A DNA stretch of 64,000 bases from Candidatus Eiseniibacteriota bacterium. Lineage in GTDB: Bacteria; Eisenbacteria; RBG-16-71-46; JABDJR01. A model generated the notes under the pieces. That model did no database searches and was not told where the DNA came from. It saw only the letters and a list, made by a program, of their open reading frames with translations. Of the stretch, positions 336-36,985 are shown one piece after another (positions within the stretch are counted from its first letter, which is position 1; the number at the start of each line of letters is the position of its first letter). The position numbers and the translations under genes are program-made. The stretch is from NCBI GenBank assembly GCA_963762255.1, contig CAVXKA010000002.1, positions 224,001 through 288,000 on the forward strand, written 5' to 3'.

Positions 336-1388
336 TCAGACGAAGAGTTTCCGGTTTTCCTCAACCCAGGCGATGAGCCGGTCCACCCCGCTCCTCGGGG
401 TCACCTCGGGGGCCCAGCGCAGGTCGCGGCAGGCCTTGGAGATGTCCGAGATGTACACCTTCTGGTCGCTCGGGCGCCAGTCGGCGAAGGACACCGGGAC
501 CTTCCTGCCGAGGTGCCCGCCCAACTGCTCCAGGAGTTCGAGCAGCGACAGGGTGTTCTCGGGGCCGCCCCCCATGTTGTAGACCCCGTAGGGATGGTCC
601 GACCCCAGGAAGGCGCGGTAGGCGGCCACGAGATCGTCCACCCAGAGGAGATCGCGCACCTGCTTGCCGTCGCCGTAGATGGTGAGGGGCTTCCCGGTGA
701 GCGCGGCGATGGTGAACCAGGCCACCCACCCCTGGTCTTCCATGCCGAACTGGCGGGTGCCGTAGATGCAGGACATGCGGAACACCCCCGTCTTGATCCC
801 GTAGAGTCGGGCGTAGTCCTGCATGTAGAGATCCCCGGTCAGCTTGGAGCAGCCGTACGGCGTATGCTCGCAGAGATCCACGGAGAACGTCTCGCCGATC
901 CCGCGTGCGTGCTCCCCCGCGAACGCCCAGCGCGTCGCCTCTTCCGAGAGCGGCACCGCGTTGACGTTCTCGCCGTAGACCTTGTTCGTGGAACAGAAGA
1001 CGACCGCCGGCTTCCGCGTTTGCGCGCGCGCAGCCTCCAGCACGTTGAACGCGCCGATCACGTTGTTCTCGAAGTCCGCGCGCGGATCGGTCACGGAGGT
1101 CGTGACCGCCGTCTGCGCGGCGGCATGGAGGATGACCGAGGCTCCCTCGGCGGCGTGGCGGGCGGTGTCCGCATCGCGCACGTCTCCCTCGATCAGCGTG
1201 ATGTTGGGGAGCGCGCCGAGGTGGTTCCAGTTGAAACGGGCGTTGCGGTCGTCCTTCTTCAGGAGCTTCGCCCGACTGAGGTTGTCGAGGACGGTGACCG
1301 GATGGCCGTCACGGGCGAAGATCTCCGCCGCGTGCGACCCGATGAACCCCGCTCCTCCCGTGACCAGCACCTTGCCGCGATCCGCCAT
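336..1388 (-). CDS. NAD-dependent epimerase, CDP-paratose 2-epimerase (RfbE)-like extended SDR
   Basis: VTGGAGFIG Rossmann motif, STNKVYG, YGCSK catalytic YxxxK, FRMSCIYGxRQFGxEDQGWVAWF. Confidence 0.85.
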   Translation of the reverse strand: MADRGKVLVTGGAGFIGSHAAEIFARDGHPVTVLDNLSRAKLLKKDDRNARFNWNHLGALPNITLIEGDVRDADTARHAAEGASVILHAAAQTAVTTSVTDPRADFENNVIGAFNVLEAARAQTRKPAVVFCSTNKVYGENVNAVPLSEEATRWAFAGEHARGIGETFSVDLCEHTPYGCSKLTGDLYMQDYARLYGIKTGVFRMSCIYGTRQFGMEDQGWVAWFTIAALTGKPLTIYGDGKQVRDLLWVDDLVAAYRAFLGSDHPYGVYNMGGGPENTLSLLELLEQLGGHLGRKVPVSFADWRPSDQKVYISDISKACRDLRWAPEVTPRSGVDRLIAWVEENRKLFV

Positions 1389-1454
1389 CGTCGTCTCCTC
1401 CGCCGGAAAAAGTCCGCACAGCGGTCCGCCCTGCCTCGCGCGGCGGGACCTCCC

Positions 1455-2417
<963 letters not shown>

Positions 2418-2420
2418 CGA

Positions 2421-3713
2421 CTAGAGCCTCCGGATGTTGGCTGACTTCCGTCCCTTGAGCGCATTGCGGCTGTCGAAGATGAGCGGCGCCAGCTCGACGA
2501 TGCGATCGTACGGGAAGATCTTGTGCGGGGTGATGATCACCACGCAGTCGCAGTTGCGCAACCGCTCGTCGGTGAGTTCCACCGACTTGAGCGGGATCCC
2601 CTCATGGGTCAGATCGGGGATGAAGGGGTCGTGATACTCCACCGTCCCCTGCAGCACCCGCAGCCCCTTGATCACATCCAGCGCGGGCGATTCCCGCACG
2701 TCGTCGATGTCCGCCTTGTAGGCCGCGCCGAGAACGAGGATCTTCGAACCCTTTACCGGCTTGGCGTGCTCGTTCAGGGCCTCCCCCACCTTCGCTACCA
2801 CGTGCTCGGGCATGAGCAGGTTGACCTGGCCGGCCAGCTCGATGAACCGCGCCTCGAAGTTGGCCTCCTTCGCCTTCCACGAGAGGTAGAAGGGGTCGAT
2901 CGGGATGCAGTGGCCGCCGAGTCCGGGGCCAGGATAGAAGGGCATGAAGCCGAAGGGCTTGGTGGCGGCGGCGTCGATCACCTCCCACACGTCGATCTTC
3001 ATGCGATCGCACATGAGGGCCAGCTCGTTGACGAGCCCGATGTTCACGCTGCGGAAGGTGTTCTCCAGAAGCTTCACCATCTCGGCCACGCGCGTCGAGG
3101 ACACCGGAATCACCGTCTCCAGCGTCTTCGAGTAGAGCGCCATCGCCACGTCGGTGCAGGCCGGCGTCACGCCGCCCACGACCTTGGGGATGTTCTTGGT
3201 CTGAAAGTTCGGGTTGCCGGGATCGACCCGCTCCGGGGAGAAGCCGAGATAGAAGTCCTTCCCCACCTTGAGCCCGCCCGCCTCCAACATGGGCAGGATG
3301 AGTTCCTCGGTCGTGCCGGGGTAGGTCGTGCTCTCCAGCACGATCAGCATGTCCTTGTGGAGGTACTTCACGATCTGCTCGACCGCGGAGATGATGTAGG
3401 AGACATCGGGGTCGCGCGTCTTGCGCAGCGGGGTGGGCACGCAGATGTCCACGGTGTCCACGTCCTTGAGCCGAGCAAAATCGGTGGTGGCCGTGAGGAG
3501 CCCCGCGGAGACCACCTTGCTCAGCGCCTCCGAGGAGACGTCCTTTACGTGGGAGCGTCCCGCGTTCACCCCGTCAACCTTCTCCCGCACAAGATCGAAT
3601 CCGGTGACCCGGAACCCGGCCTCGGCGAACTCCACTGCCAGCGGGAGCCCCACATACCCGAGGCCGATGACCCCGAGGTGAGCGCTCTTATCGTTCAGCT
3701 TCTGCTTCAACAA
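2421..3713 (-). CDS. Nucleotide sugar dehydrogenase (UDP-GlcNAc 6-dehydrogenase, WbpA/WecC family)
   Basis: GLGYVGLPLA, CVPTP, ESTTYPGTT, FSPERVDPG, GGHCIPIDP; TTG start at 3713 behind AGGAG. Confidence 0.9.
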   Translation of the reverse strand: MLKQKLNDKSAHLGVIGLGYVGLPLAVEFAEAGFRVTGFDLVREKVDGVNAGRSHVKDVSSEALSKVVSAGLLTATTDFARLKDVDTVDICVPTPLRKTRDPDVSYIISAVEQIVKYLHKDMLIVLESTTYPGTTEELILPMLEAGGLKVGKDFYLGFSPERVDPGNPNFQTKNIPKVVGGVTPACTDVAMALYSKTLETVIPVSSTRVAEMVKLLENTFRSVNIGLVNELALMCDRMKIDVWEVIDAAATKPFGFMPFYPGPGLGGHCIPIDPFYLSWKAKEANFEARFIELAGQVNLLMPEHVVAKVGEALNEHAKPVKGSKILVLGAAYKADIDDVRESPALDVIKGLRVLQGTVEYHDPFIPDLTHEGIPLKSVELTDERLRNCDCVVIITPHKIFPYDRIVELAPLIFDSRNALKGRKSANIRRL

Positions 3714-3755
3714 GGTGTTTCTCCTTGAATGCGGACATGGGAAAACCGGCGCCAA

Positions 3756-3784
3756 AGTCTACTCTGACCGTCAGTCACGGTCAA
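3756..3784 (-). promoter_or_regulatory. Sigma70-type promoter with overlapping 7-5-7 palindrome (putative operator)
   Basis: Minus strand TTGACC-17 nt-TAGACT upstream of the nucleotide-sugar operon; perfect inverted repeat TGACCGT-N5-ACGGTCA at 3765-3783. Confidence 0.6.
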
Positions 3785-3878: not shown

Positions 3879-4598
3879 TCACCCGAGGCGGCTCAAGAGG
3901 GCGGCGGCAAGCCCCCCCACCAATGTGTTCGTGGCGTTGAGCCACGTGTGCGGGAGAAGCCTGCGCGAACCGAGGACTCCTTCGTAGAGGTTCCCTACCC
4001 AGGCGGCTAGCGCAACGGCGAGGACCTGCCCCGCGGAGGAAAGTAGACCGACCCACCAACCCAGCCCCCCCAGAAGGAGCGCGACCAGGAGACCGGCCAA
4101 GGTTCCTTCCGCGGAGACGGCGCCCTCGGTGCCGGGGGGCACACTGCGCAACGTCTTGAGCGAAATCGTGCGCTTTCCCCACAGGGGCCCGACTTCCGAA
4201 CCCGCGGTGTCCATCGACGCGGTGGCGAGCGCGCCGACGAAACACGCGTTCCAGAGCGGGGCGCCCGTCGCCCACGCGGCAACAGCGGCCAGCGCGGCCA
4301 CCCCGGAGTTCGCGAACGCGTGGCTCGCACCGCGCGCGCCCTTCTTCGCCTCCGCGACCCCCATCGCTTCCTTGCGCGCGTAGCCGAGGCGGGTCAAGGC
4401 GGTCCCGATCCCGAACATGCCGGCGAGCACGAGGAAACCGCGCCATCCCAGACAGAGATAGATGGGGATCCCGACCACGAGCCCGCCTATGAATCCCGAC
4501 GCGCTCACGGCCCGCGCCGCGAGAGCGGCCACCGCGAGGACGATGTTGATCGCGAGTCCCGGCACGAGGTTCCCGCGCAGCGCGCTCCAGTCCATCAT
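3879..4598 (-). CDS. DUF92/TMEM19 membrane protein (VTE6-like prenyl-phosphate kinase)
   Basis: TRLGYARKE, GARGxxHAFAN, DTAGSEVG, VPPGTEGAVSAEGTLAG signatures; ATGA overlap with the upstream gene. Confidence 0.85.
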   Translation of the reverse strand: MMDWSALRGNLVPGLAINIVLAVAALAARAVSASGFIGGLVVGIPIYLCLGWRGFLVLAGMFGIGTALTRLGYARKEAMGVAEAKKGARGASHAFANSGVAALAAVAAWATGAPLWNACFVGALATASMDTAGSEVGPLWGKRTISLKTLRSVPPGTEGAVSAEGTLAGLLVALLLGGLGWWVGLLSSAGQVLAVALAAWVGNLYEGVLGSRRLLPHTWLNATNTLVGGLAAALLSRLG

Positions 4599-5614
4599 TG
4601 CTGCTCCTCCCGTGCCCATACCTCGTCACGCAGCCATGCCACGGTGGACTCGAGCGCCTCCTGCACGCTCCCCGGCTCGTAACCCAGCTCACGCCGCGCG
4701 CGCTCGCAGGAGAAGGCCCAATTGCAGTCGTAGAGCAGCACCTCGCCCCGGGTGAGGAACGGAGGCGTGCCGCGCAGCGCCGACCACCACTCGCTGACTT
4801 GCGCGACCGTCAAGGGGAGGACGCGCCCCAGGCGCCGGGTCGGCGCTTTGACCCCGAAGGCGCGCGCAGCGCGCTCGACCAGCTCGCGCTGACTCCAGTT
4901 CTCGCCTGCCAGAATGTAGTTCGTCCCCGGCGTGCCCCGCTCCAGCGCCTGCACGAAACCGCGCGCGACGGCGTCCACGCGGGCGAGGTTCCAGACCTGA
5001 CGGCCGTTGCCGACGAGTCCTGCGAAGCGCTTGCGTCCCACATCGGCGAGCACCCGCGCGGTGTGGTTTCCCTGCGTCATCGCGCCCGGGCCGATGAGCA
5101 CGGTGGGAAAGAGAAGGATTGCGGGAGACCCGCGCCGCTGCCGGTCGCGCACCTTGCGGGCCACGATCGCCTTCGTACGAATGTAGTCGTTGGCGCGACT
5201 CCACGGGCCCGGCTCCTCTTCGAGCGCGCTCTCGTCTTTCTGCGTGCCGGGCGCCGAGGGCCCCAGCGCGAAGAGCGAGCTGGTCACGATCCGCCGCTCC
5301 ACCCCGGCCAGCTTTGTGCGATCGAGAAGATCGAGGGTGGCGGTGATGTTGGCGCGTTCGAACTCCTCCGGAGCGGGCCCCCACGATTCCACCATCGCCG
5401 CCGTGTGCACCAGCGCGTCGGCCTCGGCGAGTCGGTCGCCCCACGTCGCTGGATCCAGAAGATCTCCGACCACCGGCGTAGCTCCGCATCCCACCAGCGA
5501 TGCGCACCGCTCCAGGGATCGGGTCAAGGCGAGCACTTCGTGGCCCGCGCCGAGGAGCGCGCGCGCGACATGGCCGCCCAGATAACCGGTGCCGCCGGTG
5601 AGAAAGACCTTCAC
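4595..5614 (-). CDS. Extended SDR (DFR/HpnA clade), farnesol dehydrogenase FLDH-like
   Basis: GTG start at 5614, VFLTGGTGYLG, HTAAMVESW, TSSLFALG, YIRTK, WAFSCERARRELGY; the 514-aa track ORF is over-extended at its 5' end. Confidence 0.8.
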   Translation of the reverse strand: MKVFLTGGTGYLGGHVARALLGAGHEVLALTRSLERCASLVGCGATPVVGDLLDPATWGDRLAEADALVHTAAMVESWGPAPEEFERANITATLDLLDRTKLAGVERRIVTSSLFALGPSAPGTQKDESALEEEPGPWSRANDYIRTKAIVARKVRDRQRRGSPAILLFPTVLIGPGAMTQGNHTARVLADVGRKRFAGLVGNGRQVWNLARVDAVARGFVQALERGTPGTNYILAGENWSQRELVERAARAFGVKAPTRRLGRVLPLTVAQVSEWWSALRGTPPFLTRGEVLLYDCNWAFSCERARRELGYEPGSVQEALESTVAWLRDEVWAREEQQ

Positions 5615-6290
5615 CGCACGAGGCCCTGCAGAGCCCAGAAGGCCAGCGCCCCCGCTGCGGGGACGGTGAGGTTGTCCTTGCCCCGGCCCGCAGGGGCCTC
5701 GGCGAGGGTCGCCGCGACCGCCGCTCCCAGCGCGGGAACGAACGCGGGCCGGTCCACGAGCGGAAGCGTTCCGATCAGGATCCCCGCGAACGAGAACGCG
5801 AACATGGCCGCCGTCCCCTCCCACGACTTCTTCCCGCCGCCGATCGAGTAGGTGTGCCGCCCGTAACGCCGGCCAAGCACCGACGCCGCGGCGTCGCCCA
5901 GTCCCATCGCATAGAGTCCCGCCACGCTGGCCGCGCGCGCGCCGAACGGCCAGAGGATGAGGATCAGCGCGGCAAAGGAGAGGGGGAAGTAAATCGTGCC
6001 GGGCGTCCCCTCCCCATCCTCCTCGATCACCTTCATCAGGCGGAAGCGGTAGGAGATCGCGTTCAGCACGACGAAGACAAGAGGGGCGAGCGCCGCCCAC
6101 CAGGGCGAACGGAAATAGAGCGCGGTGGGAAGGGCCCAAAGGGCCACGCCGACGTGGATCACCTTGCGGGTCACGTTGGGGGAAGCTTGGCGACTCGGCG
6201 CGTCCCCTCCCCCACCACGATGACGGCGAAGATCCACAGGAACGAAAGCGCCACCAGGCCGGGGTCGCTGCTTACAAACCACGAAATCAT
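5611..6290 (-). CDS. Phytol/farnesol/dolichol kinase (CTP_transf_1, VTE5/FOLK-like), with a 1-bp frameshift near 6178-6182
   Basis: RKVIH, GTIYF, GLGDAAASVLG, KKSWEG, DNLTVP motifs; N-terminal TM segment MISWFVSSDPGLVALSFLWIFAVIVVGE from ATG 6290 joins if one base is added to the 5-nt run at 6178-6182. Confidence 0.8.
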
Positions 6291-6338
6291 GACGGGGGAT
6301 TAGAACACAGCGGGCCTGCGGCGGCCAGTGGCGCCGAG

Positions 6339-7376
6339 CTAGGCGGCTTCGCTGAGACGGTTGGGAAGCGCCGGGAGTTCGGCGGTGACCACGCAGTTGC
6401 GGCCCTGCCGCTTGGCCCGGAAGAGCGCTTCATCCGCCGCGGCCAACAGCGACTCCATCGTCGCGCCGTTCTGCGGGAAGCTCGCCACCCCCATGCTCAC
6501 CGTGATCACGCCCGGCTCGCAATGCGGGAAGTTGGCGCTCGCCACCGAGGCGCAGGTGCGTTGCCCCATGCTCACCGCGCCGTCCATCCGGGTCTGCGGC
6601 AGGATGACCAGGAACTCGTCCCCACCGTACTTGGCCACCAGATCGATGGCGCGCGAGTTGCGCGCGAGAATCCCCGCGAGCTGGCGGAGAAGCTCGCTCC
6701 CTCCCAGGTGGCCGTGCTGCTCGTTGTACTTCTTGAGATGATCGACGTCGATCATGATGATCGAGAACGTCTGGCCGTAGCGAGACGCGCGCGCCACTTC
6801 GCGGCGCAACGCCGTCTTGAGGAACCGATAGTTGTAGAGGCGGGTCAACTCGTCGGTGATCGCGAGCGACTCCACTTCCTGGAACGCACGGAGGTTCCCG
6901 ATCGCGCCCGCGCAGTGCTTGGCGACGAAATGCAGGATCTCCTTCTCTTCGTCGGTGAACTGCCGATCGCCGGTGTCCACCACCACGAGGATCCCGGCGG
7001 GTCGATCGGGGAGTGGAATCGGCGTGCCCAACCATGACTTCGCGCCCACCACGCCCATGAAGTCCTGGATCGACGGGGCATCCCCGTCGCCCGGACGCCA
7101 GACATGCGCGGACTCGTCCTGTAGCACGGCGCGACCGAGACGGCCCGGACCTTCCCACGGCTCCGTGCGCACGAGCAGCGCACCTTCCTCGGCGAACGAC
7201 ACCAGGCTCGATCCGTCCACGGCCGCGGCGGCGTAGCCCAACGGAGTCCCGAGCGCTTCACGGGCAAGCGCCGCCGAGCGCGCCAGAATGCCCGCGAGGT
7301 CGCGCCGACCCTCATCGAGGTCGGAGACTTCTCGAAGCTTCTGGCAGAGGAGGCGATAGCCGTTGTTGTGTGTCAT
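6339..7376 (-). CDS. GAF-GGDEF diguanylate cyclase
   Basis: TDELTRLYN, DVDHLKKYNEQHGHLGG, intact GGDEF, RxxD I-site (RAID); N-terminal GAF-like region. Confidence 0.9.
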   Translation of the reverse strand: MTHNNGYRLLCQKLREVSDLDEGRRDLAGILARSAALAREALGTPLGYAAAAVDGSSLVSFAEEGALLVRTEPWEGPGRLGRAVLQDESAHVWRPGDGDAPSIQDFMGVVGAKSWLGTPIPLPDRPAGILVVVDTGDRQFTDEEKEILHFVAKHCAGAIGNLRAFQEVESLAITDELTRLYNYRFLKTALRREVARASRYGQTFSIIMIDVDHLKKYNEQHGHLGGSELLRQLAGILARNSRAIDLVAKYGGDEFLVILPQTRMDGAVSMGQRTCASVASANFPHCEPGVITVSMGVASFPQNGATMESLLAAADEALFRAKRQGRNCVVTAELPALPNRLSEAA

Positions 7377-7477
7377 GGATGGTCCTCAACCGGGGCGCCC
7401 CTTTGGCCCGTCCAGGGATGTATCGGCAGGGAGGGTGGAAGAGCCCAGATAAAAACGATTCGCCCCCGAAGGTGGGG

Positions 7478-7768
7478 CTAATCCCCGCGAGGACCGGGGG
7501 ATGGCACGACGAGGGACCTGCGGAGGTAGCGTCCCCCCTGGAAGAGGAGGAAGGCCCCGATGATGAGGGGCCCGGCCGTGAAGACCACGGGGAACCAGGC
7601 CGGGACGGCGGCGCCGTCGCGCTCCAGGCGCTCCATCACCCGCTGGACCGGGCCCAGCCGGAAGTATGCGATGAGCCCCGCGGTGGCCAGGTAGAGCAGG
7701 GCTAGGACCGCGTTCAGCCCCCTGACAAATCGGACCCCGGCGGGGACGGTTCGGCCGCGGCCGATCAT
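7478..7768 (-). CDS. Small two-TM hypothetical membrane protein
   Basis: Two hydrophobic segments; ATGA overlap with the peptidase stop. Confidence 0.6.
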   Translation of the reverse strand: MIGRGRTVPAGVRFVRGLNAVLALLYLATAGLIAYFRLGPVQRVMERLERDGAAVPAWFPVVFTAGPLIIGAFLLFQGGRYLRRSLVVPSPGPRGD

Positions 7769-9513
7769 CGCAGGACCACGAACTTGGCCACGGACACGTC
7801 GGCGCTTCCCCCCTCAGGGTCGAACGCTTCGACGCGCAGAAGATAGAGACCGGGGGCCAGCTTCGTCCCCTGAAGCACGTCTCGGAGCGGCACGCGTGAG
7901 AGCCCGGCCACCGTGCCCGGCGCTCTCACCGCCTTGTCGTAGGGAAGGTCGAGCTCGGCCAGCGGCACCGCGTCCAGACCGATTACGGTGATCCGGATGG
8001 AGCCGTCCTGGCTCATCTCGTAGGCCAGCATCGCCGACTCCGGGTCACGGGTAGGGTTCGGGTAGACGAACGCCGCCTGCACCTCGCGCGCGCCTCCGCG
8101 CACCGCTTCCAGGCGCGAGCCGCCGGAACCCTCCGAGGGGGAGATGGTCGCCACCAACCGCACGACACCCTGCTCACCCGCCTCCGGAATCCAGGGGAAG
8201 CGGGCCTTCACGCGGCCGCCGGCCGGGATGACTTCCGTGATCTGCTGCGTGCCGAGGGTCCGCACGAACTCGCGATCGAGGGTCTGGATGTCGAGGGTCA
8301 CACTCATCGGCGCGGTGCGGGTGCCGCCGCGATTGGTCACCCCGACCGCAACCGTGACCTCGTCGTCCAGGTCCACCGAGGCCAGGTCCACCGCACGCCC
8401 CGCCTGGACGAGGATGTCCTCGTCGGTCACCACCATGCTATCCGCTCCCGTGCGCGACCACTCGTTGAGCATGCCGAGGAACAGGTCCGCGGTGAGCGCG
8501 GCCTGACTGCCGTTGCGCGAATAGGTGCCGTCCACGGTGTCGGTGGCGTGGTGGTAGTGCGGCGCATGCGGCTCGACGTCGGTGGTCTCGATGAGCATCA
8601 CCGCGTCGAATCCCCTCTCCCAGAACGGACCGTGGTCGCTGTTGCCGAGCCCGCGCACCACGCGCTCCACCTGCATTCCGGCCGCGTAGCCGCCGGTCTC
8701 GTGCACGGCCAGGATCTGCGTACCCAACCAGCGGGAAGGTATATTCGTCAACACCACCAGCGAATCCTGCCGCGGGTTGTACGCGACCATGTCGGCGTTC
8801 AGGAGAGCGTAGAGCTTGTCTCCCCCGGCATCCTCGATGGCGCGCGTCGTGTCGGCGAGAACCTTGCTGCCGAGCAGGAAGCGCGCCGGCTCGACGACCT
8901 GCACCTCTTCGCCGTCGAAGAAGGCGATGCGCACGTCGGCCTCGGGGCGTATCCCGCGCGCGGCGGCGACGCGCAGCGCTTCGAGGATGGTGGCGACACC
9001 GCTCGCGTTGTCGTCCGCTCCCGGCGCGTCGTAGGTAAACGGATCCCATAGCGTGTCGCCGGCGGCGTCCCGCATCGAGGTGGCGTCGAAATGCGCGCCC
9101 ATCATGAAGAAGCCGGGGGCGGCGCCGCCGAGGCGTCCCGGCAGGATCCCTACCACGTTCGTGTAGGGGTTGCGCAGCGTGTGCGGCCCGTCGTAATCAA
9201 ACGCGGGGTCGAAGGGCTCGAGAACGGCATAGCCCCCCATGGGCCGCAGCACAGCATCCAGCCGGTCGCGAAGGTACTGCGCGTAGATCGCCGTGCTTGG
9301 CAGCGGCGCGAACCGCGAGCGGGGGCCGATGCCGGTTTCGCCCGTCAGAGCGCGGGCGGTGGCCAGGATCGAGTCCGCGGAGACGTTGGCGGAAGGGGCC
9401 AGGGCGCCCCCCGGCGCGGCAAGTGGTTCCCGCGCCCCGGGCCGCGGGGTGACCGCGAACGCGAAAGTCAGCACGACGATGGCGGCCACGACCGGACGGA
9501 GAGGTTGGCTCAT
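7765..9513 (-). CDS. Secreted M28 metallopeptidase with CARDB-like domain and T9SS-like C-terminal domain
   Basis: Signal peptide; GAHFD, GADDNASG, FDGEE, NADMV, SDHGPF, YHxxxD; C-terminal VYPNP...LAPGLYLLRV...KFVVLR. Confidence 0.85.
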   Translation of the reverse strand: MSQPLRPVVAAIVVLTFAFAVTPRPGAREPLAAPGGALAPSANVSADSILATARALTGETGIGPRSRFAPLPSTAIYAQYLRDRLDAVLRPMGGYAVLEPFDPAFDYDGPHTLRNPYTNVVGILPGRLGGAAPGFFMMGAHFDATSMRDAAGDTLWDPFTYDAPGADDNASGVATILEALRVAAARGIRPEADVRIAFFDGEEVQVVEPARFLLGSKVLADTTRAIEDAGGDKLYALLNADMVAYNPRQDSLVVLTNIPSRWLGTQILAVHETGGYAAGMQVERVVRGLGNSDHGPFWERGFDAVMLIETTDVEPHAPHYHHATDTVDGTYSRNGSQAALTADLFLGMLNEWSRTGADSMVVTDEDILVQAGRAVDLASVDLDDEVTVAVGVTNRGGTRTAPMSVTLDIQTLDREFVRTLGTQQITEVIPAGGRVKARFPWIPEAGEQGVVRLVATISPSEGSGGSRLEAVRGGAREVQAAFVYPNPTRDPESAMLAYEMSQDGSIRITVIGLDAVPLAELDLPYDKAVRAPGTVAGLSRVPLRDVLQGTKLAPGLYLLRVEAFDPEGGSADVSVAKFVVLR

Positions 9514-14967: not shown

Positions 14968-15405
14968 CTAGAGGTACCAGATGAAGGCGTACAACACGCC
15001 GAAGGCGGCACCCACGAACACCTCGAACGGCGTGTGTCCCACGAGCTCGGAGAGACGCTCGGGCTTGAACGTGCGGTGGGCATAGTGGTCGGCGACCATG
15101 CGATTCAGGATGCGGGCCTGCGTGCCGGCGGCGCGCCGAAGCCCCGCGGCGTCGTACATGATGACGAGGCTGAAGAAGAGGGTGACGCTGAAGAGCGGAG
15201 ACGTGAAGCCCTCGAGGAACCCGACCGACGTCGTGAGCGCGGTCACGCTCGCTGAATGCGAGCTGGGCATGCCGCCCGTGCCCACCAGCCGCGTGAAGTT
15301 GACCCGGCGGTAGCGCACGAAGAACGCCACGAACTTGTAGATCTGGACGACGAAGCCCGCCGAGAGCGCCACGAGGTACGGCGCGGAGGCGACGAAGTCC
15401 CTCAT
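14968..15405 (-). CDS. Divergent PAP2 family protein (DUF212)
   Basis: GGMPSSHSA, YDAAGLRRAAG, LSELVGHTPFEV; start ATG 15405. Confidence 0.9.
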   Translation of the reverse strand: MRDFVASAPYLVALSAGFVVQIYKFVAFFVRYRRVNFTRLVGTGGMPSSHSASVTALTTSVGFLEGFTSPLFSVTLFFSLVIMYDAAGLRRAAGTQARILNRMVADHYAHRTFKPERLSELVGHTPFEVFVGAAFGVLYAFIWYL

Positions 15406-15463
15406 ACCGACCTCACCGGGCGCAGCAACCTGCCCCTCGCGTCGCGCCGACGCGCGGAAATCA

Positions 15464-16498
15464 TCAGGCCTTCCCCGCCGGGCGCAGAAGCTCGCCCTTC
15501 GCGTCGCGTCGGCGCGCGTCGAGGATGTCGACCAAGCCGCGATAGACATCACGTCGTTGCGGCATGCGCGCGGCCGCCGTCCGCGCCGCCTTCAAGTGCC
15601 GGTCGACTGCTTTGTGGGACGCCGCGAACCCGATCACCCCCGGATAGGTCGCCTTCCCCCGCTCCGCGTCACGTCCGGGCTCGCGGCCCAGCTCGCGGAA
15701 GGTGCCGGCCGCGCCGAGGATGTCGTCCACGATCTGAAACGCCAGGCCGAACCCCTCGCCGTAAGCGGTCAGGAGCGCGAGCCGCGCGGCGGAGGCCTCG
15801 GCGGCGATCCCCCCCATGCGCAGCGCGGCGGTGAAGAGCCGCGCCGTCTTGTGGCGATGAATGTAGAGCAGCGTGGCGCGGCTCGCCTTCTTCCCTTCGG
15901 AAAGCAGATCGAGCGCCTGCCCGCCGATCACTCCGCCCGAGCCGGTCGCGGCACCCAGCTCCTCCACCAGCCGCGCGGCGACGGCGGGACCGAGCGCCCC
16001 CGGTTTCCCGAGTTCGCCTAACACATGAAAACTCCTGGCTAACAGCGCGTCCCCGGCTAGGATAGCCACCCCATCACCGAACACCTTGTGGTTGGAGAGG
16101 CGGCCCCGGCGGTAGTCGTCGTCGTCCATTGCCGGGAGGTCGTCGTGGATGAGCGAGAACGCGTGCACCATCTCCAGCGTCGCTGCCACCGCGTCCGCCT
16201 TGCGCCCGGTGCCACCGAAGGTCTCGTAGGCCAGGAGCACCATCGCGGGACGCAGGCGCTTCCCCCCCGAGAGCGCGGTGTAGCGCATGGCGTCGTGAAT
16301 GATCTCGGGGCGCTCCTTGGCAGCGGGAATGATGCGATCCAACGCGCGGTCCACGCGTCGGCTTGCGACCTCGAGATAGTTGCGCGCGGCCGGGGCGTCG
16401 TCGGACGACCGCCCGCGCCCATCGGCGGACGACCGCCGGGACGATCCCGTGGATGCGCGCTCCAGCGCGCGGGCGGAATCAGAACGGAAGCTCCCCAT
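15464..16498 (-). CDS. ispA: Polyprenyl diphosphate synthase (FPP/GGPP synthase)
   Basis: GGKRLRP, DDLPAMDDDDYRRG (FARM), KTA, FQIVDD; start uncertain. Confidence 0.9.
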   Translation of the reverse strand: MGSFRSDSARALERASTGSSRRSSADGRGRSSDDAPAARNYLEVASRRVDRALDRIIPAAKERPEIIHDAMRYTALSGGKRLRPAMVLLAYETFGGTGRKADAVAATLEMVHAFSLIHDDLPAMDDDDYRRGRLSNHKVFGDGVAILAGDALLARSFHVLGELGKPGALGPAVAARLVEELGAATGSGGVIGGQALDLLSEGKKASRATLLYIHRHKTARLFTAALRMGGIAAEASAARLALLTAYGEGFGLAFQIVDDILGAAGTFRELGREPGRDAERGKATYPGVIGFAASHKAVDRHLKAARTAAARMPQRRDVYRGLVDILDARRRDAKGELLRPAGKA

Positions 16499-16832
16499 CC
16501 TCGTCCTCATCTTCCTCATCGTCCTCTTCTTCAACCGGCTCCTCATCATCGACCGCGCCGGAGAGCGCCGAGGGCTCCAGCCGGAACCCCTCGCTCCCTT
16601 CCGACAGCTCGCGGATCGTGGCCTCAGCGGCTTCGAGCTTCTTCACGCAGTGACGCACGAGTCGGGTGCCGTCGGCGTAGGCCTGGATGCTCTCCTCCAG
16701 AGGAACCTCGCCCTCTTCGAGGCGCGCAACTACCGATTCCAGCCGCTCGAGCGCGGCCTCGAAGCTCAAATCGTCGGTCGCCTCCGGCGCGGACTTCTTC
16801 CTCGCCGGCGACTTCTTCTTTCCGGGGCTCAT
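16479..16832 (-). CDS. xseB: Exodeoxyribonuclease VII small subunit
   Basis: FEAALERLESVVARLEEGEVPLEES core; follows xseA. Confidence 0.9.
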   Translation of the reverse strand: MSPGKKKSPARKKSAPEATDDLSFEAALERLESVVARLEEGEVPLEESIQAYADGTRLVRHCVKKLEAAEATIRELSEGSEGFRLEPSALSGAVDDEEPVEEEDDEEDEDEDGELPF

Positions 16833-31753: not shown

Positions 31754-33067
31754 TCATTCGACGCGAGGAGGAGACCCGGCTCCGGCATCCAAGACCACCC
31801 CTGGCGGCGTGACGGCGCCGGGCGGCTCTTCCACGAGGCCGGCGGTGCTCCGGTGGAGGGGCCCCGCCTCGAACATCATCCGCCGGGCCTGGACGAGAAG
31901 GGTCCAGTTGTTGGCGACGACGAGCACCACCAGAAGCCAACCCGCAATCACCGTGGGCCGCTTCGCCGCCCACGCTCCCCCGGCGGCCACGAGCACCAGG
32001 AGCGGCAGGAACTGGATCGCGTAGAGAAAGGTCTCGTCGCCGAAGAGCAGGTAAACGAGCCACTGCGCCAGCAGGGACCCGACCACCACGAGCATCGGGC
32101 GGAGAGGCCAGTGGCGAAGACCACCCACCACGCCGACGAGCAGCACCCCTGTCCAGAGCACCGCGGCGGGCACACCCCACGCCGTTCCCGAACCGATCGG
32201 CGCGGCCTGAACGCTCAACAGGAACTGGTTCGAGTCCGTGAGCGGAAGCCGCAGGAGCCTCGGCATGACCATGGCGTGAAAGAGCATGGCTCGCGAGACC
32301 GGCCAAAGGCCGCCGAACACGTCGTGGGACAGGTACTGGGCTTCACCCATGGCGCCGAACACGAACAGCCCGGACGTCGGGAAGAGCCGGCGCTGCAAGA
32401 GCGCCAGCCCCACGACGAGCACTCCGGCCAGGATCGTGACCGCCGCCGCGCGCCGCCGCCGGAGGCAGACGGCCGAAGCCAGAACGCCGGCGCTCCAGTT
32501 CGTCACCGTCGCGCTCAGCGTGCCGGCGCTGGCCAGGACCCAGAGCGCGGCCGGCGTCCGCCGCCGTTCGTTCCATGCCGCCAGCGCCATCATGAGCAGG
32601 ATGGTGAGGGACCCGAGGCCGTAAGTCTCCGGGATGGAGTACCAGAACAGCGACGAGGCGCTGACCATGCCGAGCAGGGTGTAGGGCAGCGCGACGCTCA
32701 CGGGAAGGCGGATCAGGAGCAGAACCAGGAGGAGGACGGCGGACCAGGCTCCGGCGATGAGGGCGTGGTAGATCCGCGCCGCGACCAGGGGGTCGGTGCC
32801 GGCGACGGCCCGGATCGCGGCGACCACCGGGTACGAAAGCAGGGAGTAGAGGGGATGGACCGAGTCGCGATAGTGGAAATGGCTGTGGGCGTCAGTATCC
32901 ACCCCGACCACCCGCTCCGGGTCGGCGTCGAACCAGTAGTTGGAGTAGGCCGGGGTGTAGAGAGCGGTGGGAATCCTCCGCGAGAGCATGAGGGACCCGG
33001 TGATGCCCCCGCCGGCGACGATCAGGAGCAGGCCGACGAGCATCAACCGGTTCGTCCTCGGTCTCAT
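31754..33067 (-). CDS. Multi-pass membrane protein, GT-C/DUF6080-like
   Basis: About 10 hydrophobic segments, first loop NYWFDAD...HPLYSLL, PETY motif. Confidence 0.65.
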   Translation of the reverse strand: MRPRTNRLMLVGLLLIVAGGGITGSLMLSRRIPTALYTPAYSNYWFDADPERVVGVDTDAHSHFHYRDSVHPLYSLLSYPVVAAIRAVAGTDPLVAARIYHALIAGAWSAVLLLVLLLIRLPVSVALPYTLLGMVSASSLFWYSIPETYGLGSLTILLMMALAAWNERRRTPAALWVLASAGTLSATVTNWSAGVLASAVCLRRRRAAAVTILAGVLVVGLALLQRRLFPTSGLFVFGAMGEAQYLSHDVFGGLWPVSRAMLFHAMVMPRLLRLPLTDSNQFLLSVQAAPIGSGTAWGVPAAVLWTGVLLVGVVGGLRHWPLRPMLVVVGSLLAQWLVYLLFGDETFLYAIQFLPLLVLVAAGGAWAAKRPTVIAGWLLVVLVVANNWTLLVQARRMMFEAGPLHRSTAGLVEEPPGAVTPPGVVLDAGAGSPPRVE

Positions 33068-33146
33068 GGTCGCTCCTCTTCACGCTCGCGCCGCCGGCCG
33101 GACGGGGAACTCCCCGACCGCGCCGGGATTCTATGACCCTCGCCGC

Positions 33147-35483: not shown

Positions 35484-35629
35484 GCGCCGGCGAAACGGGC
35501 CGTCGTCCTGCCGGGGTCGTGGATCCCCTCCGCCGACGGGAGTCGGGAACGGCGACGGTCGGATCCCGGCGGCGCGGCCGTCCTCCGAGTGCAGCTCAAG
35601 CGGGGTCTCCTCCTGATTTCAGGGACGAG

Positions 35630-35786
35630 TGTAATCGCCGGTCCAAAAGTGCGGTGGGTGGCGGTCGAAAAGTCCGGCACCCGGGACAGTGATAAGCCCC
35701 TCGATGGAGGGGCGTCAACGAGTTTCTCCTAGTTGGTCTTCTCCGGGGTGATCCGGGGTCGCTTCTGACGGGTCTTGGCTTGTCCC
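35630..35786 (-). mobile_element. IS21-family terminal inverted repeat and probable istB 3' remnant
   Basis: TGTAATCGCCGGTCCAAAAGTGCGG...GGCGGTCGAAAAGTCCGGCA (TG end, tandem AAAAGT boxes); minus-strand ORF tail GQAKTRQKRPRITPEKTN*. Confidence 0.55.
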
Positions 35787-35889
35787 AGGCGGAAGAAGTC
35801 CCTCAAGCGCACCTGCCTCTACGTCCTCAAGAGCGCCTCCACGCTGCGCTACGAGATCTTCGGGGGGGGCGGCATCGTCCGCTACCCGC

Positions 35890-36985
35890 TGGCCGCGCCA
35901 CCCTCGGCCACGATGGCCATCAGCCGCGCCCCCATGCGCCCGGCTTTGCCCTCGGCCTTGATGTGATCGCCTGCCATCGGCGTGCCCGACATCAAGCACT
36001 TGAAGTTCGCTCCGCGCGCCAGCTTGGTCCCGTTCTTCGCTCCCTCCGCATCCCTCGGCTTCCCCACCTTCACCGTGAACCGATAGCCGCCGTCTTCGAT
36101 CACCGGCTCGACATACGCCTCCTAGCCCTCCTTCGTGGAGAGCATGAACGTGGATGCACGCGGCACGTCCACCTGTGAAAACGCCGGGTTGGGGCTCTTC
36201 ACCGTGCGCGCCCAGAGCCAAGCGATCACGGTGAGCGACTTGCCGACGTACGGCTTCAGGTCCGGCCGCTCCTTCGCCATCTCGGCCGTGACCTCAATCT
36301 TGGGATAGAGGTGCCCGATGCGCTTCTCCGCCTCGTCGCGCATCCGCTTGCCGTAGTAGCGCACATCCTCGGCAAGCCCTTGCGCACCCTTCCACGACCC
36401 CGAGTGACCCGTGCTCTCGCGCGACTCGGGATTCACCGGCGGCTTCCCCGCGAACTTGGGCGGGATCTCGATCATCGCCTTGTTGATGAGCACCGCCACC
36501 GGATTCAAGTCGCTGGCGTAGGCCTCGAGCCCCAACCGCTGCGCCTCCAGCGGCAGTGCGCCGCCGCCCGCGAAGGGATCGTGGAAGGCGGGGAGCTTGT
36601 GGCGGTCGAACAGTTCCTTTGCCCGCGGATGGTCGGCGTTCTCGGCGCAGGTGTAGCGCCAGCTCTGCCAGATCTCGTCGCGGGCCGCCTGGAGCACCTT
36701 TTCGTTGGTGGTGTTCTCCCACAGGACGAGGTCTTCGATGATGCGGAAGAGCCGCTGGCGCTCCTTCTCCTGTTTCTTCTCGGTCGGGAACAGGTCCGGA
36801 TGCGCCGACGGATCGTCCACCATCTGCGCGAAGATCACCGCCCGCGCCGCCGCCAAGGGACGGCGCGCCCACCACAGGTGGAGCGTGCTCGGGTGCCCGT
36901 GGCGGATCGACTTCTCCCGCGCGGACGCCTTGTTGATGGCATCGAGCGGGAGGGCGACTTCGATGAGTTTCTTGGCGGTCTTCAT
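35890..36985 (-). pseudogene. N-terminal part of DUF1156 adenine-specific DNA methylase, in-frame TAG at 36122-36124
   Basis: [35 protein letters not shown] (SAM motif I), DLNPVA; frame continues after TAG ([23 protein letters not shown]) then breaks. Confidence 0.85.

What the first reader, a model, noticed from the sequence alone, without database searches (positions are those of the whole stretch)
3879..6290. Three-gene prenol salvage operon: VTE5/FOLK-like kinase + FLDH-like dehydrogenase + VTE6/DUF92
Seen: three genes chained by 4-nt overlaps (GTGA at 5611-5614, ATGA at 4595-4598): a CTP_transf_1 kinase, an extended SDR and a DUF92 protein. Established: plant VTE5/FOLK phosphorylate phytol/farnesol, VTE6 (DUF92) adds the second phosphate, and FLDH interconverts farnesol and farnesal. 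As I recall the Arabidopsis FLDH sequence, the SDR matches it at distinctive blocks (HTAAMVESWGP, TSSLFALG, GPGAMTQGN, WAFSCERARRELGYEP..WL). Inference: a complete bacterial route prenal -> prenol -> prenyl-P -> prenyl-PP for scavenging or recycling isoprenoid alcohols. The kinase-DUF92 pairing is known; I do not know of a description with the dehydrogenase embedded.
Basis: partly seen in the sequence, partly recalled or inferred. Interest (0 to 1): 0.8.

Follow-up and report, generated by a model that had tools for sequence, protein, structure and literature searches.

The report
Bacterial prenol kinase, reductase, DUF92 operon
Three overlapping genes look like a bacterial version of the plant route that re-activates free isoprenoid alcohols, with an extra reductase gene whose link to this route recurs in several soil-bacterial phyla and has not been described.

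Summary
The three minus-strand genes and both 4-nt overlaps are real. The first gene is not one open frame, though: one base of a C6 run is missing, while relatives are intact (226 aa).

The genes are:
- a VTE5-like "phytol/dolichol kinase" relative that Pfam PF01148 does not detect;
- an extended SDR;
- a DUF92 (VTE6 family) protein.

The SDR is not HpnA. It scores 195.8 bits against a cut-off of 367.65, the genome has no squalene-hopene cyclase, and a supported tree clade separates it from HpnA. That clade holds every relative that JGI labels "farnesol dehydrogenase". Orthology to plant FLDH itself could not be tested.

The linkage is conserved:
- SDR-DUF92 adjacency in 23 of 206 genomes of the phylum; the full trio only in the window's family (7 genomes).
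- In a 201-genome Acidobacteriota sample, the SDR sits beside a fused kinase::DUF92 gene in 39 genomes. A ChlG/HPT/DGGGPS-like UbiA prenyltransferase follows that gene in 42.
- The window's genome has this UbiA (59% identical) elsewhere.

Best reading: prenal to prenol to prenyl-P to prenyl-PP, feeding that UbiA. Rivals are lipid-carrier supply for glycans (NDP-sugar genes flank the module in both phyla) and an SDR that acts on another substrate.

Verdict: a new variant of a known pathway, moderately interesting.

The parts
6171..6290 (-). 5' piece of the prenol-kinase gene: ATG at 6290, 39 codons (first membrane helix), stop TGA at 6173-6171 caused by the frameshift
   Evidence: Translation. 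Residues 1-38 align with the N-termini of the 226-aa relatives P0004 and P0005. The genome search finds it as a separate piece, 230168-230290 in genome coordinates.
6178..6182 (.). Frameshift site: a run of 5 G (plus strand) where relatives carry one more base
   Evidence: Sequence. Contigs of runs X1, X2 and X10, 95-97% alike, all have a G put in behind 6177 plus T>C at 6177 (table 4). That restores KLPPDVTRK as in P0004.
5611..6177 (-). Body of the VTE5-like prenol (phytol/dolichol-type) kinase gene, 188 aa, stop TGA at 5613-5611
   Evidence: Translation. 105 homologues, many named phytol or dolichol kinase by JGI. All 16 invariant columns of alignment A2 are kept. hhalign against DUF92: E 2.1e-5, 152 columns.
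4595..5614 (-). Extended SDR (339 aa, GTG start): candidate prenal/prenol oxidoreductase of a non-HpnA clade
   Evidence: GGTGYLG motif plus S113/Y144/K148 conserved. Trees. HpnA score 195.8 < 367.65.
3879..4598 (-). DUF92 / VTE6-family membrane protein (239 aa): candidate prenyl-phosphate kinase
   Evidence: PF01940 at 140.9 bits. TIGR00297 at 138.2 bits, below its cut-off of 205.85. Invariant K76, R89, D130, T131, E135, E206 and N221 in A3.
6339..7376 (-). Context: GAF-GGDEF gene 48 nt upstream of the kinase, same strand; possibly the first gene of the transcription unit
   Evidence: Pfam. The same neighbour sits next to the kinase in relatives L085, L086, L088, L097, L099-L103. A terminator-like site lies at 7478-7462 upstream of it.
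3756..3784 (-). Context: promoter-like site in the 123-nt gap between DUF92 and the next gene
   Evidence: TTGACC-17-TAGACT, 9 of 12 matches. 2 sites found in 10 kb against 0.4 expected. This is a consensus match only.
336..3755 (-). Context: nucleotide-sugar dehydrogenase (2421-3755) and two epimerase/dehydratases (1455-2417, 336-1388) downstream of DUF92
   Evidence: Pfam. NCBIfam TIGR03026 at 441.6 bits. The same genes follow DUF92 in f1, f2, f3, f4, f9 and f11.

Best explanation
This is a prenol-activation module.
- A CTP-type prenol kinase (VTE5/FOLK/dolichol-kinase relative) puts the first phosphate on a free isoprenoid alcohol.
- The DUF92 protein (VTE6 family) adds the second phosphate, giving a prenyl diphosphate.
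- The embedded extended SDR, from a lipid-acting clade distinct from HpnA, most likely reduces the matching aldehyde (farnesal, geranylgeranial or phytenal type) to the alcohol. That adds an aldehyde entry to the route.
- The product is most likely used by a conserved ChlG/HPT/DGGGPS-like UbiA prenyltransferase. This gene is encoded elsewhere in this genome and directly behind the module in Acidobacteriota. Its relatives point to a C20 chain.

Shown here: gene identities at family level, the conserved linkage, the kinase::DUF92 fusion, the co-occurrence with UbiA, and the SDR's separation from HpnA.

Inferred: every enzymatic step, the chain length, the direction of the SDR reaction and the acceptor of the UbiA.

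In this particular genome the kinase gene carries a 1-nt frameshift, either an assembly error or a recent lesion.
For: Families:
- DUF92 matches PF01940.
- Kinase relatives are named phytol or dolichol kinase. The kinase and DUF92 profiles align over 152 columns (hhalign E 2.1e-5).
- VTE5, FOLK and VTE6 are the known kinases of this route (passages of PMC9782597; PMC10849223).

Linkage in the window's phylum (206 genomes, script 81):
- DUF92 is present in 57 genomes.
- The SDR is adjacent to DUF92 in 23, plus 2 more within 1 kb.
- The order kinase-SDR-DUF92 occurs in 7.
- Kinase and DUF92 are directly adjacent in 27.

Linkage in Acidobacteriota (sample of 201 genomes, script 79):
- A kinase/DUF92 match occurs in 95 genomes, mostly as one fused ORF.
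- The SDR is adjacent in 39, UbiA in 42, and all are in a row in 23.
- 69 of the 70 UbiA-bearing genomes also have kinase/DUF92.
- One Planctomycetota locus has SDR followed by DUF92 (L021).

UbiA:
- The own genome's copy is 59% identical to the Acidobacteriota one.
- In the phylum it occurs in exactly the families that have DUF92 and in 0 of the other 134 genomes.
- Its nearest models are ChlG, BchG, HPT and DGGGPS. Its best solved relatives are DGGGP synthase and chlorophyll synthase.

SDR:
- The catalytic Ser-Tyr-Lys triad and the Rossmann motif are kept.
- Its nearest named models act on lipids (HpnA, SdmB, OleD).
- The 26-row clade (96/98) holds all DUF92-linked SDRs and all 8 sampled JGI 'farnesol dehydrogenase' proteins. 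In the quick tree all 12 such proteins fall in the equivalent clade.
- The top ESM-Atlas cluster is from land plants.
- Family f18 has kinase-DUF92 plus UbiA without the SDR, so the SDR behaves as an accessory entry step rather than as part of the core.
Against: - No enzyme activity is known for any bacterial member.
- No plant FLDH, VTE5 or VTE6 sequence could be compared.
- Pfam PF01148 does not detect the kinase. The motif-only alignment to the genome's CdsA is weak (30 columns, probability 13.8%).
- DUF92 is below the TIGR00297 cut-off.
- The SDR is most tightly linked to DUF92, not to the kinase that would take its product.
- No obvious source of prenals is known in a non-phototroph. The genome has no reaction centre and no geranylgeranyl reductase above cut-off.
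- NDP-sugar genes flank the module in both phyla, which fits a glycan-carrier role as well.
- The kinase is frameshifted here.
- Genomes of one phylum are kin, so the counts overstate independence. The real independent support is three arrangements in three phyla.
Confidence: 0.5

Rival explanations
1. Lipid-carrier supply for envelope glycans. The kinase (and DUF92) would phosphorylate a long-chain polyprenol (undecaprenol or dolichol-like). The SDR would work on polyprenol/polyprenal, as DHRSX does in the revised eukaryotic dolichol route. The module would serve the neighbouring nucleotide-sugar pathway.
For: - DUF92 is followed by a nucleotide-sugar dehydrogenase, epimerases and WbpB/D/E-like genes in f1, f2, f3, f4, f9 and f11. 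In f18 it is followed by UDP-GlcNAc 2-epimerase and polysaccharide export genes.
- In 5 of the 7 Acidobacteriota loci, RmlA-like and NDP-sugar dehydratase/epimerase genes lie directly upstream of the SDR.
- Archaeal DUF92 (arCOG02245) was linked to uppS and glycosylation, and is fused to a dolichol-kinase-like domain (passages of PMC5898192).
- The pairing of an SDR with a CTP-dependent kinase in dolichol synthesis is documented (PMC11250103, abstract in the listing).
Against: - A carrier lipid needs only the monophosphate, whereas the one characterised DUF92 makes a diphosphate.
- The tight UbiA adjacency and co-occurrence points to a prenyl-diphosphate donor. That UbiA is ChlG/HPT/DGGGPS-like, and no decaprenyl-phosphate phosphoribosyltransferase model appeared among its hits.
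- No Steroid_dh (SRD5A3-type) reductase is in the genome.
- SDR-DUF92 stays adjacent where no sugar genes are near (L020, L021).
- A promoter-like site separates DUF92 from the sugar genes (weak).
Confidence: 0.2
2. The SDR is tied to the module but does not act on a prenal. Instead it reduces or oxidises the acceptor or the product of the UbiA prenyltransferase, for example a keto group of a polyol, quinol or glycerol-type head group.
For: - The most conserved neighbour of the SDR is DUF92 or the fused gene, not the kinase alone.
- In 23 Acidobacteriota genomes the SDR, kinase::DUF92 and UbiA lie in a row.
- The SDR's substrate is not shown by any test here. Its nearest named relatives act on varied lipids.
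Against: - f18 of the phylum (36 of 41 genomes with UbiA, 27 with adjacent kinase-DUF92) lacks the SDR. About half of the Acidobacteriota carriers have no strong SDR hit. The UbiA pathway therefore runs without it.
- Automatic KEGG-based labels of clade members are 'farnesol dehydrogenase'.
Confidence: 0.15
3. The SDR is an ordinary nucleotide-sugar epimerase/dehydratase of the adjacent sugar cluster, and its place beside DUF92 is incidental synteny.
For: - The Pfam hit is to the NAD-dependent epimerase/dehydratase family.
- Sugar-nucleotide genes are neighbours in both phyla.
- JGI names some relatives 'nucleoside-diphosphate-sugar epimerase'.
Against: - Specific sugar-enzyme models score far below cut-off: GalE 43.9 against 262.3, dTDP-glucose dehydratase 25.9 against 365.1.
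- The best matches are the lipid-acting HpnA, SdmB and OleD models.
- In the window's family the SDR lies between kinase and DUF92 with 4-nt overlaps, not next to the sugar genes.
- Adjacency persists without sugar genes (L020, L021).
Confidence: 0.08
4. The SDR is HpnA, the hopanoid-associated enzyme.
For: HpnA (TIGR03466) is the best NCBIfam match (E 8.3e-58).
Against: - The score of 195.8 is below the cut-off of 367.65.
- 17 proteins above the cut-off score 435-511 bits. Two of them sit next to squalene synthase or an HpnN-like MMPL gene.
- HpnA forms a separate supported group (99/95).
- No squalene-hopene cyclase was found in this 93.6%-complete genome.
Confidence: 0.02

Closest known systems
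VTE5 (phytol kinase) / VTE6 (phytyl-phosphate kinase, DUF92/COG1836) of plants and Synechocystis
   Same: - It has the same two-kinase logic: a small polytopic CTP-type prenol kinase plus a DUF92 protein.
- The genes are paired or fused in prokaryotes. Genome context is how VTE6 was first predicted (passages of PMC9782597; PMC3223725).
- DUF92 is matched by Pfam.
   Different: - The hosts are not phototrophs: no reaction centre.
- An SDR is embedded.
- The partner UbiA is not ChlG or HPT by NCBIfam cut-offs.
Arabidopsis FLDH (At4g33360) with FOLK: farnesal to farnesol to farnesyl-P
   Same: It is the same proposed chemistry: an extended SDR on a prenal/prenol followed by a VTE5-like kinase (passages of PMC13415981). 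Relatives of the window's SDR carry JGI's 'farnesol dehydrogenase' label. The top ESM-Atlas cluster is from Streptophyta.
   Different: - In plants the genes are unlinked, and the aldehyde comes from prenylcysteine breakdown, which is not known in bacteria.
- Orthology is untested.
- R32 after the second strand (invariant in A1) suggests NADP(H) by the general SDR rule (my recall), whereas FLDH is described as NAD-dependent.
HpnA (TIGR03466), hopanoid-associated SDR
   Same: It is the nearest curated model, with the same fold class and length and full-length alignment.
   Different: The window's SDR scores below the cut-off, falls in a separate clade, and has no hopanoid genes nearby or in the genome.
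Archaeal arCOG02245 (DUF92) fused to a dolichol-kinase-like domain (e.g. Mbar_A3310)
   Same: It has the same kinase::DUF92 fusion that is found here in Acidobacteriota (passages of PMC5898192).
   Different: The archaeal context is uppS and glycosylation. No SDR or UbiA partner was reported in the passages read.
Revised eukaryotic dolichol route: DHRSX, SRD5A3, dolichol kinase
   Same: An SDR that interconverts a prenol and its aldehyde works upstream of a CTP-dependent kinase of the same superfamily (PMC11250103, abstract in the listing).
   Different: - It handles long-chain carriers.
- It needs a polyprenal reductase, which was not found here.
- It has no second kinase and no UbiA.

Membership tests
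VTE5/FOLK/dolichol-kinase type prenol kinases (CTP_transf_1 superfamily) | Match to Pfam PF01148 | tested here: not met
   No hit at E 10 for the window's protein and none for the intact relative P0004 in NCBIfam. PF01148 finds only CdsA in the genome. 5 of the 105 listed homologues carry a precomputed PF01148 hit.
VTE5/FOLK/dolichol-kinase type prenol kinases (CTP_transf_1 superfamily) | Signature GD..A...G..G ... KS.EG motif shared with CdsA-type enzymes, with conserved acidic residues | tested here: inconclusive
   The motif is present, and D133 and D206 are invariant in A2. hhalign to the genome's CdsA aligns only 30 columns (E 0.002, probability 13.8%). Against DUF92 it aligns 152 columns (E 2.1e-5, probability 76.9%).
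VTE5/FOLK/dolichol-kinase type prenol kinases (CTP_transf_1 superfamily) | Intact gene of about 226 aa | tested here: not met
   The window copy is split by a 1-nt frameshift. The relatives examined are intact.
VTE5/FOLK/dolichol-kinase type prenol kinases (CTP_transf_1 superfamily) | CTP-dependent phosphorylation of a prenol | not testable with these tools
   This needs an enzyme assay.
DUF92 / VTE6 (PF01940, TIGR00297, COG1836) | Pfam PF01940 above the gathering score | tested here: met
   140.9 bits against 27.5.
DUF92 / VTE6 (PF01940, TIGR00297, COG1836) | NCBIfam TIGR00297 above the curated cut-off | tested here: not met
   138.2 bits against 205.85. The fused Acidobacteriota form scores 192.4, also below.
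DUF92 / VTE6 (PF01940, TIGR00297, COG1836) | Genomic pairing or fusion with the prenol kinase | tested here: met
   Directly adjacent in 27 genomes and in a trio in 7 of the 206 genomes of the phylum. Fused in Acidobacteriota.
DUF92 / VTE6 (PF01940, TIGR00297, COG1836) | Prenyl-phosphate kinase activity | not testable with these tools
   This needs an enzyme assay.
FLDH (farnesol dehydrogenase, At4g33360 type) | Extended SDR with a Rossmann GxxGxxG motif and a Ser-Tyr-Lys triad | tested here: met
   G7, G10, G13, S113, Y144 and K148 are conserved in A1.
FLDH (farnesol dehydrogenase, At4g33360 type) | Orthology to the plant enzyme | tested here: inconclusive
   No plant sequence was obtainable. 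Indirect evidence: all 12 JGI 'farnesol dehydrogenase' relatives lie in the window's clade (8 of 8), and the top ESM-Atlas cluster is Streptophyta, 332 aa.
FLDH (farnesol dehydrogenase, At4g33360 type) | Oxidoreduction of farnesol/farnesal | not testable with these tools
   This needs an enzyme assay.
HpnA (TIGR03466) | Score at or above the curated cut-off of 367.65 | tested here: not met
   195.8 bits. 17 true HpnA proteins score 435-511 bits.
HpnA (TIGR03466) | Hopanoid genes nearby or in the genome | tested here: not met
   No SQHop_cyclase_C match in the 93.6%-complete genome. The neighbours are GGDEF, kinase, DUF92 and sugar genes.
Nucleotide-sugar epimerases/dehydratases | Score above the cut-off of a specific sugar-enzyme model | tested here: not met
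   GalE 43.9 against 262.3, dTDP-glucose 4,6-dehydratase 25.9 against 365.1, CDP-glucose dehydratase 15 against 278. Only the generic PF01370 domain is met.

The most novel reading that the evidence does not exclude
A widespread, undescribed four-enzyme pathway exists in non-phototrophic soil and sediment bacteria: Acidobacteriota, the window's phylum and some Planctomycetota. An FLDH-type reductase, a prenol kinase, a DUF92 prenyl-phosphate kinase and a dedicated ChlG-like UbiA together build an unknown prenylated (probably C20) lipid from free prenals and prenols. On this reading the 'salvage' kinases are the committed supply line of a new lipid class, not a recycling side road, and the FLDH-type SDR is an old partner of the VTE5/VTE6 route.
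Probability: 0.25. Interest if true: 0.75.

Novelty: new variant of a known kind. Interest (0 to 1): 0.6.

Why it matters
Genes for farnesol and geranylgeraniol salvage are experimentally known only in plants, one cyanobacterium and Plasmodium. Reviews call the pathway 'missing' elsewhere (passages of PMC9782597; PMC10849223).

A conserved bacterial module would supply what that field lacks:
- compact, expressible candidates for all the steps;
- a candidate prenal reductase;
- a genetic handle on an unknown UbiA product that is present in about a third of the sampled Acidobacteriota.

It would also give enzymes useful for feeding cheap prenols into engineered isoprenoid pathways.

Tried and rejected
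Readings tested and rejected:
- **HpnA/hopanoid.** Rejected.
- **Archaeal-type ether lipid, with the UbiA as DGGGP synthase.** No PcrB/GGGPS in the genome, so this is unlikely.
- **Phototrophy as a phytol source.** No Photo_RC. No geranylgeranyl reductase above cut-off; the best match is 42.7 bits against 158.8.
- **Dolichol-type alpha-saturation.** No Steroid_dh.
- **Decay of the kinase across the lineage.** The 'stops inside' reported for G053, G054 and G009 lie at the gene ends, and G055 is in one frame with inserts. Only the window's copy is broken.

Searches that led nowhere:
- SDR fused to another domain: none found among proteins of 595-2000 aa. The tool itself says this is weak evidence.
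- The FLDH paper (Bhandari 2010) is not held, by DOI or by PMC id.
- Papers on 3WJ7/Gox2253, the best solved relative of the SDR: nothing useful.

Limits of the read and genome evidence:
- None of the four runs laid is the source sample; all contigs are under 99% alike except one. The runs show that relatives are intact, not whether the window's frameshift is an assembly error. X3 does not cover the site. Stretches without cover mean nothing.
- The careful tree of all 99 rows did not finish in two 300-s runs. A 51-row subset was used instead.
- The own-genome UbiA neighbourhood gave no clue to the acceptor.
Full report
**Observation**

The region holds three minus-strand genes. The SDR (4595-5614, 339 aa) starts with GTG inside the stop of the gene before it (GTGA, 5611-5614). 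The DUF92 gene (3879-4598, 239 aa) starts with ATG inside the SDR's stop (ATGA, 4595-4598), with GGAGGAG just upstream.

The first gene is not one frame. The ATG at 6290 opens 39 codons that end at a TGA (6173-6171). The conserved body, 188 aa, reads in another frame from 6177 to 5611. The closest relatives are 226 aa, exactly 38 + 188, and read ...KLPPDVTRK... across the break. The window therefore lacks one base of a C6 run (plus-strand G run 6178-6182).

Contigs 95-97% alike from three public runs cover the site. X1 and X10 are from one study and X2 from another. All three carry an extra G there (table 4). X3 does not cover the site. None of the runs is the source sample, so an assembly error and a real recent frameshift cannot be told apart.

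The kinase genes of relatives G052, G053, G054, G055 and G009 are each in one frame. The lesion is therefore private to this genome.

**What the three proteins are**

*DUF92.* It matches PF01940 (140.9 bits). It lies below the TIGR00297 cut-off (138.2 against 205.85).

*Kinase.* It has no Pfam hit even at E 10, and PF01148 finds only CdsA in the genome.
- 105 homologues were listed. JGI names many of them phytol kinase or dolichol kinase, and 5 carry a precomputed PF01148 hit.
- All 16 invariant columns of the family alignment are kept in the window's copy, including the GD..A...G and DN..VP motifs.
- The kinase profile aligns with the DUF92 profile over 152 columns (hhalign E 2.1e-5, probability 76.9%). 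This fits the published view that both belong to the cytidylyltransferase-like superfamily (passages of PMC5898192).
- The alignment to the genome's own CdsA covers only the motif (30 columns, probability 13.8%).

*SDR.* It is an extended SDR with GGTGYLG and Ser113-Tyr144-Lys148. Its best curated models act on lipids:
- HpnA, 195.8 bits (cut-off 367.65);
- sterol demethylase SdmB, 105.3 bits;
- OleD, 99.8 bits.

Sugar-enzyme models are far lower. The best solved relative is 3WJ7, a 'putative oxidoreductase' (E 1.5e-41).

**Is the SDR HpnA or FLDH-like?**

I scored 91 relatives against NCBIfam.
- 17 reach the HpnA cut-off, at 435-511 bits. Two that I checked sit beside squalene/phytoene synthase (L022) or an MMPL/HpnN-like gene (L026).
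- Every DUF92-linked SDR scores 180-233 bits.
- All 12 relatives that JGI calls 'farnesol dehydrogenase' score 160-264 bits.

A quick tree of 99 rows puts all 14 DUF92-adjacent, all 6 fusion-adjacent and all 12 JGI-FLDH rows in one 43-row clade, together with 11 others (SH-aLRT 98). The 17 HpnA rows lie elsewhere.

The careful search on 99 rows did not finish. I therefore built a careful tree of 51 rows, dropping 48 that included the long-branch rows L025, L036, L058, L078 and L096.
- The 11 HpnA rows form one side of a branch (99/95).
- The window lies in a 26-row clade (96/98) with 9 DUF92-adjacent, 5 fusion-adjacent, 8 JGI-FLDH and 4 other rows.

The genome has no squalene-hopene cyclase (completeness 93.6%).

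The nearest ESM-Atlas cluster by language-model features is a 63-member, 332-aa cluster that is 80% eukaryotic, mostly Streptophyta. This is a lead only. No tool gave me a plant FLDH sequence, so orthology to FLDH remains untested. JGI names are automatic.

**Conservation in the window's phylum (206 genomes)**

With the three proteins as queries and a coordinate script:
- DUF92 is present in 57 genomes.
- The SDR lies within 500 nt of DUF92 in 23, and within 1 kb in 2 more (G043, G044).
- The order kinase-SDR-DUF92 occurs in 7, all in the window's family f1. The eighth member, G047, has kinase and DUF92 1 Mb apart and no SDR.
- In f3, f4 and f9 the kinase is elsewhere in the genome, next to a GGDEF gene.
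- In f18 the kinase and DUF92 are directly adjacent without an SDR (27 genomes).

The kinase tally of 78 of 206 includes the unpublished genome G072, a weak match that enters no adjacency count.

**Conservation elsewhere**

Among 80 loci fetched with an SDR alignment from one-per-species genomes, 7 Acidobacteriota loci carry a single ORF directly after the SDR. That ORF joins a kinase domain to a DUF92 domain. One of them, L013, is split over two frames. One Planctomycetota locus has SDR then DUF92 at a contig end.

In an even sample of 201 Acidobacteriota genomes (script 79):

| Feature | Genomes | Without unpublished G362/G234 |
|---|---|---|
| Kinase/DUF92 match | 95 | not computed |
| SDR within 500 nt of it | 39 | 38 |
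| UbiA prenyltransferase within 500 nt | 42 | 40 |
| All in a row | 23 | 22 |

Of the 70 UbiA-bearing genomes, 69 also have kinase/DUF92. The SDR search scored only 10 first-look candidates per genome, so its counts are lower bounds.

**The UbiA**

It follows the fusion in 6 of the 7 loci. Its best models are a generic archaeal-type prenyltransferase, ChlG/BchG, homogentisate phytyltransferase and DGGGP synthase, all far below cut-off. Its best solved relatives are DGGGP synthase (5.3e-19) and chlorophyll a synthase (5.1e-17). Its nearest Atlas clusters beyond its own are chlorophyll-synthase-like.

The window's genome encodes an orthologue, 59% identical, on another contig (G000:C3:631064-631987). 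Its neighbours are uninformative.

In the phylum it occurs in 64 of 206 genomes, in exactly the families that have DUF92: f1-f4, f9-f11, f13 and f18. It is in none of the 134 genomes of the other families. These genomes are kin, so this amounts to a few events and not 64.

**Other context**

- A GAF-GGDEF gene precedes the kinase here and in relatives.
- DUF92 is followed by a nucleotide-sugar dehydrogenase (TIGR03026, 441.6 bits) and epimerase/dehydratases. In relatives these are joined by GFO_IDH_MocA, hexapeptide-transferase and DegT genes.
- In 5 of the 7 Acidobacteriota loci, RmlA-like and NDP-sugar dehydratase/epimerase genes lie just upstream of the SDR.
- A promoter-like site lies between DUF92 and the sugar genes (weak).
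- The genome lacks PcrB/GGGPS, a geranylgeranyl reductase above cut-off, photosynthetic reaction centres and an SRD5A3-type reductase.
- It has a phytoene/squalene synthase family gene.

**Mechanism**

The best-supported reading has three layers.
- *Core.* A prenol kinase and a DUF92 prenyl-phosphate kinase turn a free prenol into a prenyl diphosphate. This rests on the characterised plant and cyanobacterial members (PMC9782597, PMC10849223, passages) and on the fusion.
- *Consumer.* The diphosphate goes to the co-inherited, often adjacent UbiA. Its relatives use C20 diphosphates.
- *Accessory.* The SDR is never found strongly without kinase/DUF92 in the Acidobacteriota sample: all genomes with an SDR hit at E <= 1e-44 have them. 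Yet it is absent from f18 and from about half of the carriers. It most plausibly adds an aldehyde entry, prenal to prenol.

R32 after the second strand is invariant. By the general SDR rule, which I recall and did not test, this suggests NADP(H) and hence reduction.

All catalytic steps, the chain length and the acceptor are inferred.

The main rivals are:
- supply of a polyprenyl-phosphate carrier for the neighbouring glycan genes;
- an SDR that works on the UbiA's acceptor or product;
- a plain sugar-nucleotide enzyme;
- HpnA, which is rejected.

**Novelty**

The kinase-DUF92 pairing and fusion are in print (PMC3223725 table entry; PMC5898192 and PMC9782597 passages). I found no paper that links an FLDH/HpnA-type SDR or a dedicated UbiA to them in bacteria. 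The searches were:
- VTE6/DUF92/bacteria;
- farnesol dehydrogenase / phytol kinase / phytyl phosphate kinase / operon;
- prenol, farnesol and geranylgeraniol kinase;
- COG1836;
- FLDH/VTE5/VTE6/phytenal/HpnA;
- TIGR00297/PF01940/UbiA;
- K18678/K15891/farnesal reductase.

I saw listings and passages only. Subscription journals and supplements were not searched. PlantSEED-type resources that first predicted VTE6 may show such neighbourhoods without my seeing them.

**Verdict**

This is a real, conserved module and a new variant of the VTE5/VTE6 route. The copy in this window has a frameshifted kinase.

Noticed in passing
window 14968-16549 (minus strand): A DUF212 'divergent PAP2' gene (14968-15552) abuts an FPP-synthase gene (15464-16549; NF045485 at 297.5 bits, cut-off 275), beside NAD kinase and xseA. 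A PAP2-like phosphatase next to IspA could be a source of free prenols for the kinase module. In relative G046 the DUF92 gene lies 1.4 kb downstream of dxs, after nadK and a 112-aa ORF (L104).
   Followed up: no
window 6339-7376; L085, L086, L088, L097, L099-L103: A GAF-GGDEF diguanylate cyclase gene sits immediately upstream of the prenol kinase. It does so here and across the phylum, even where the kinase has moved away from SDR-DUF92. This suggests co-transcription or c-di-GMP-linked control of the module.
   Followed up: partly
window 336-3755; L088-L095: A nucleotide-sugar dehydrogenase and epimerases follow DUF92. In relatives these are joined by GFO_IDH_MocA, hexapeptide acetyltransferase and DegT aminotransferase genes, a WbpA/B/D/E-like set (my recall of that pathway). 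They follow DUF92 in most families of the phylum.
   Followed up: partly
L096 (G044:C82), 6325-7695 and 7703-8767: In family f10 of the window's phylum the DUF92 ORF is 456 aa, with DUF92 at residues 224-422. This resembles the Acidobacteriota fusion. Its SDR groups with Planctomycetota and Acidobacteriota SDRs in the quick tree, on a long branch. It may be a transferred copy of the module.
   Followed up: no
G049:C7:640025-640722 (L087): The DUF92 gene of this relative matches in two overlapping pieces (residues 3-142 and 138-236). This is a possible frameshift in another member of the family.
   Followed up: no
window 31754-36985 (minus strand): A 287-aa ORF with DUF1156 and the start of a D12-class DNA methyltransferase (36122-36985) is followed by two large ORFs without any Pfam hit (33147-35483, 31754-33067). 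This may be a split or novel restriction/defence-type locus.
   Followed up: no
G000:C3:631064-631987 (L106:9065-9991) versus L014:8327-9319: Between the window's phylum and Acidobacteriota the UbiA is much better conserved (59% identity) than its partners: kinase domain 27-31%, SDR about 35%, DUF92 36-53%.
   Followed up: partly
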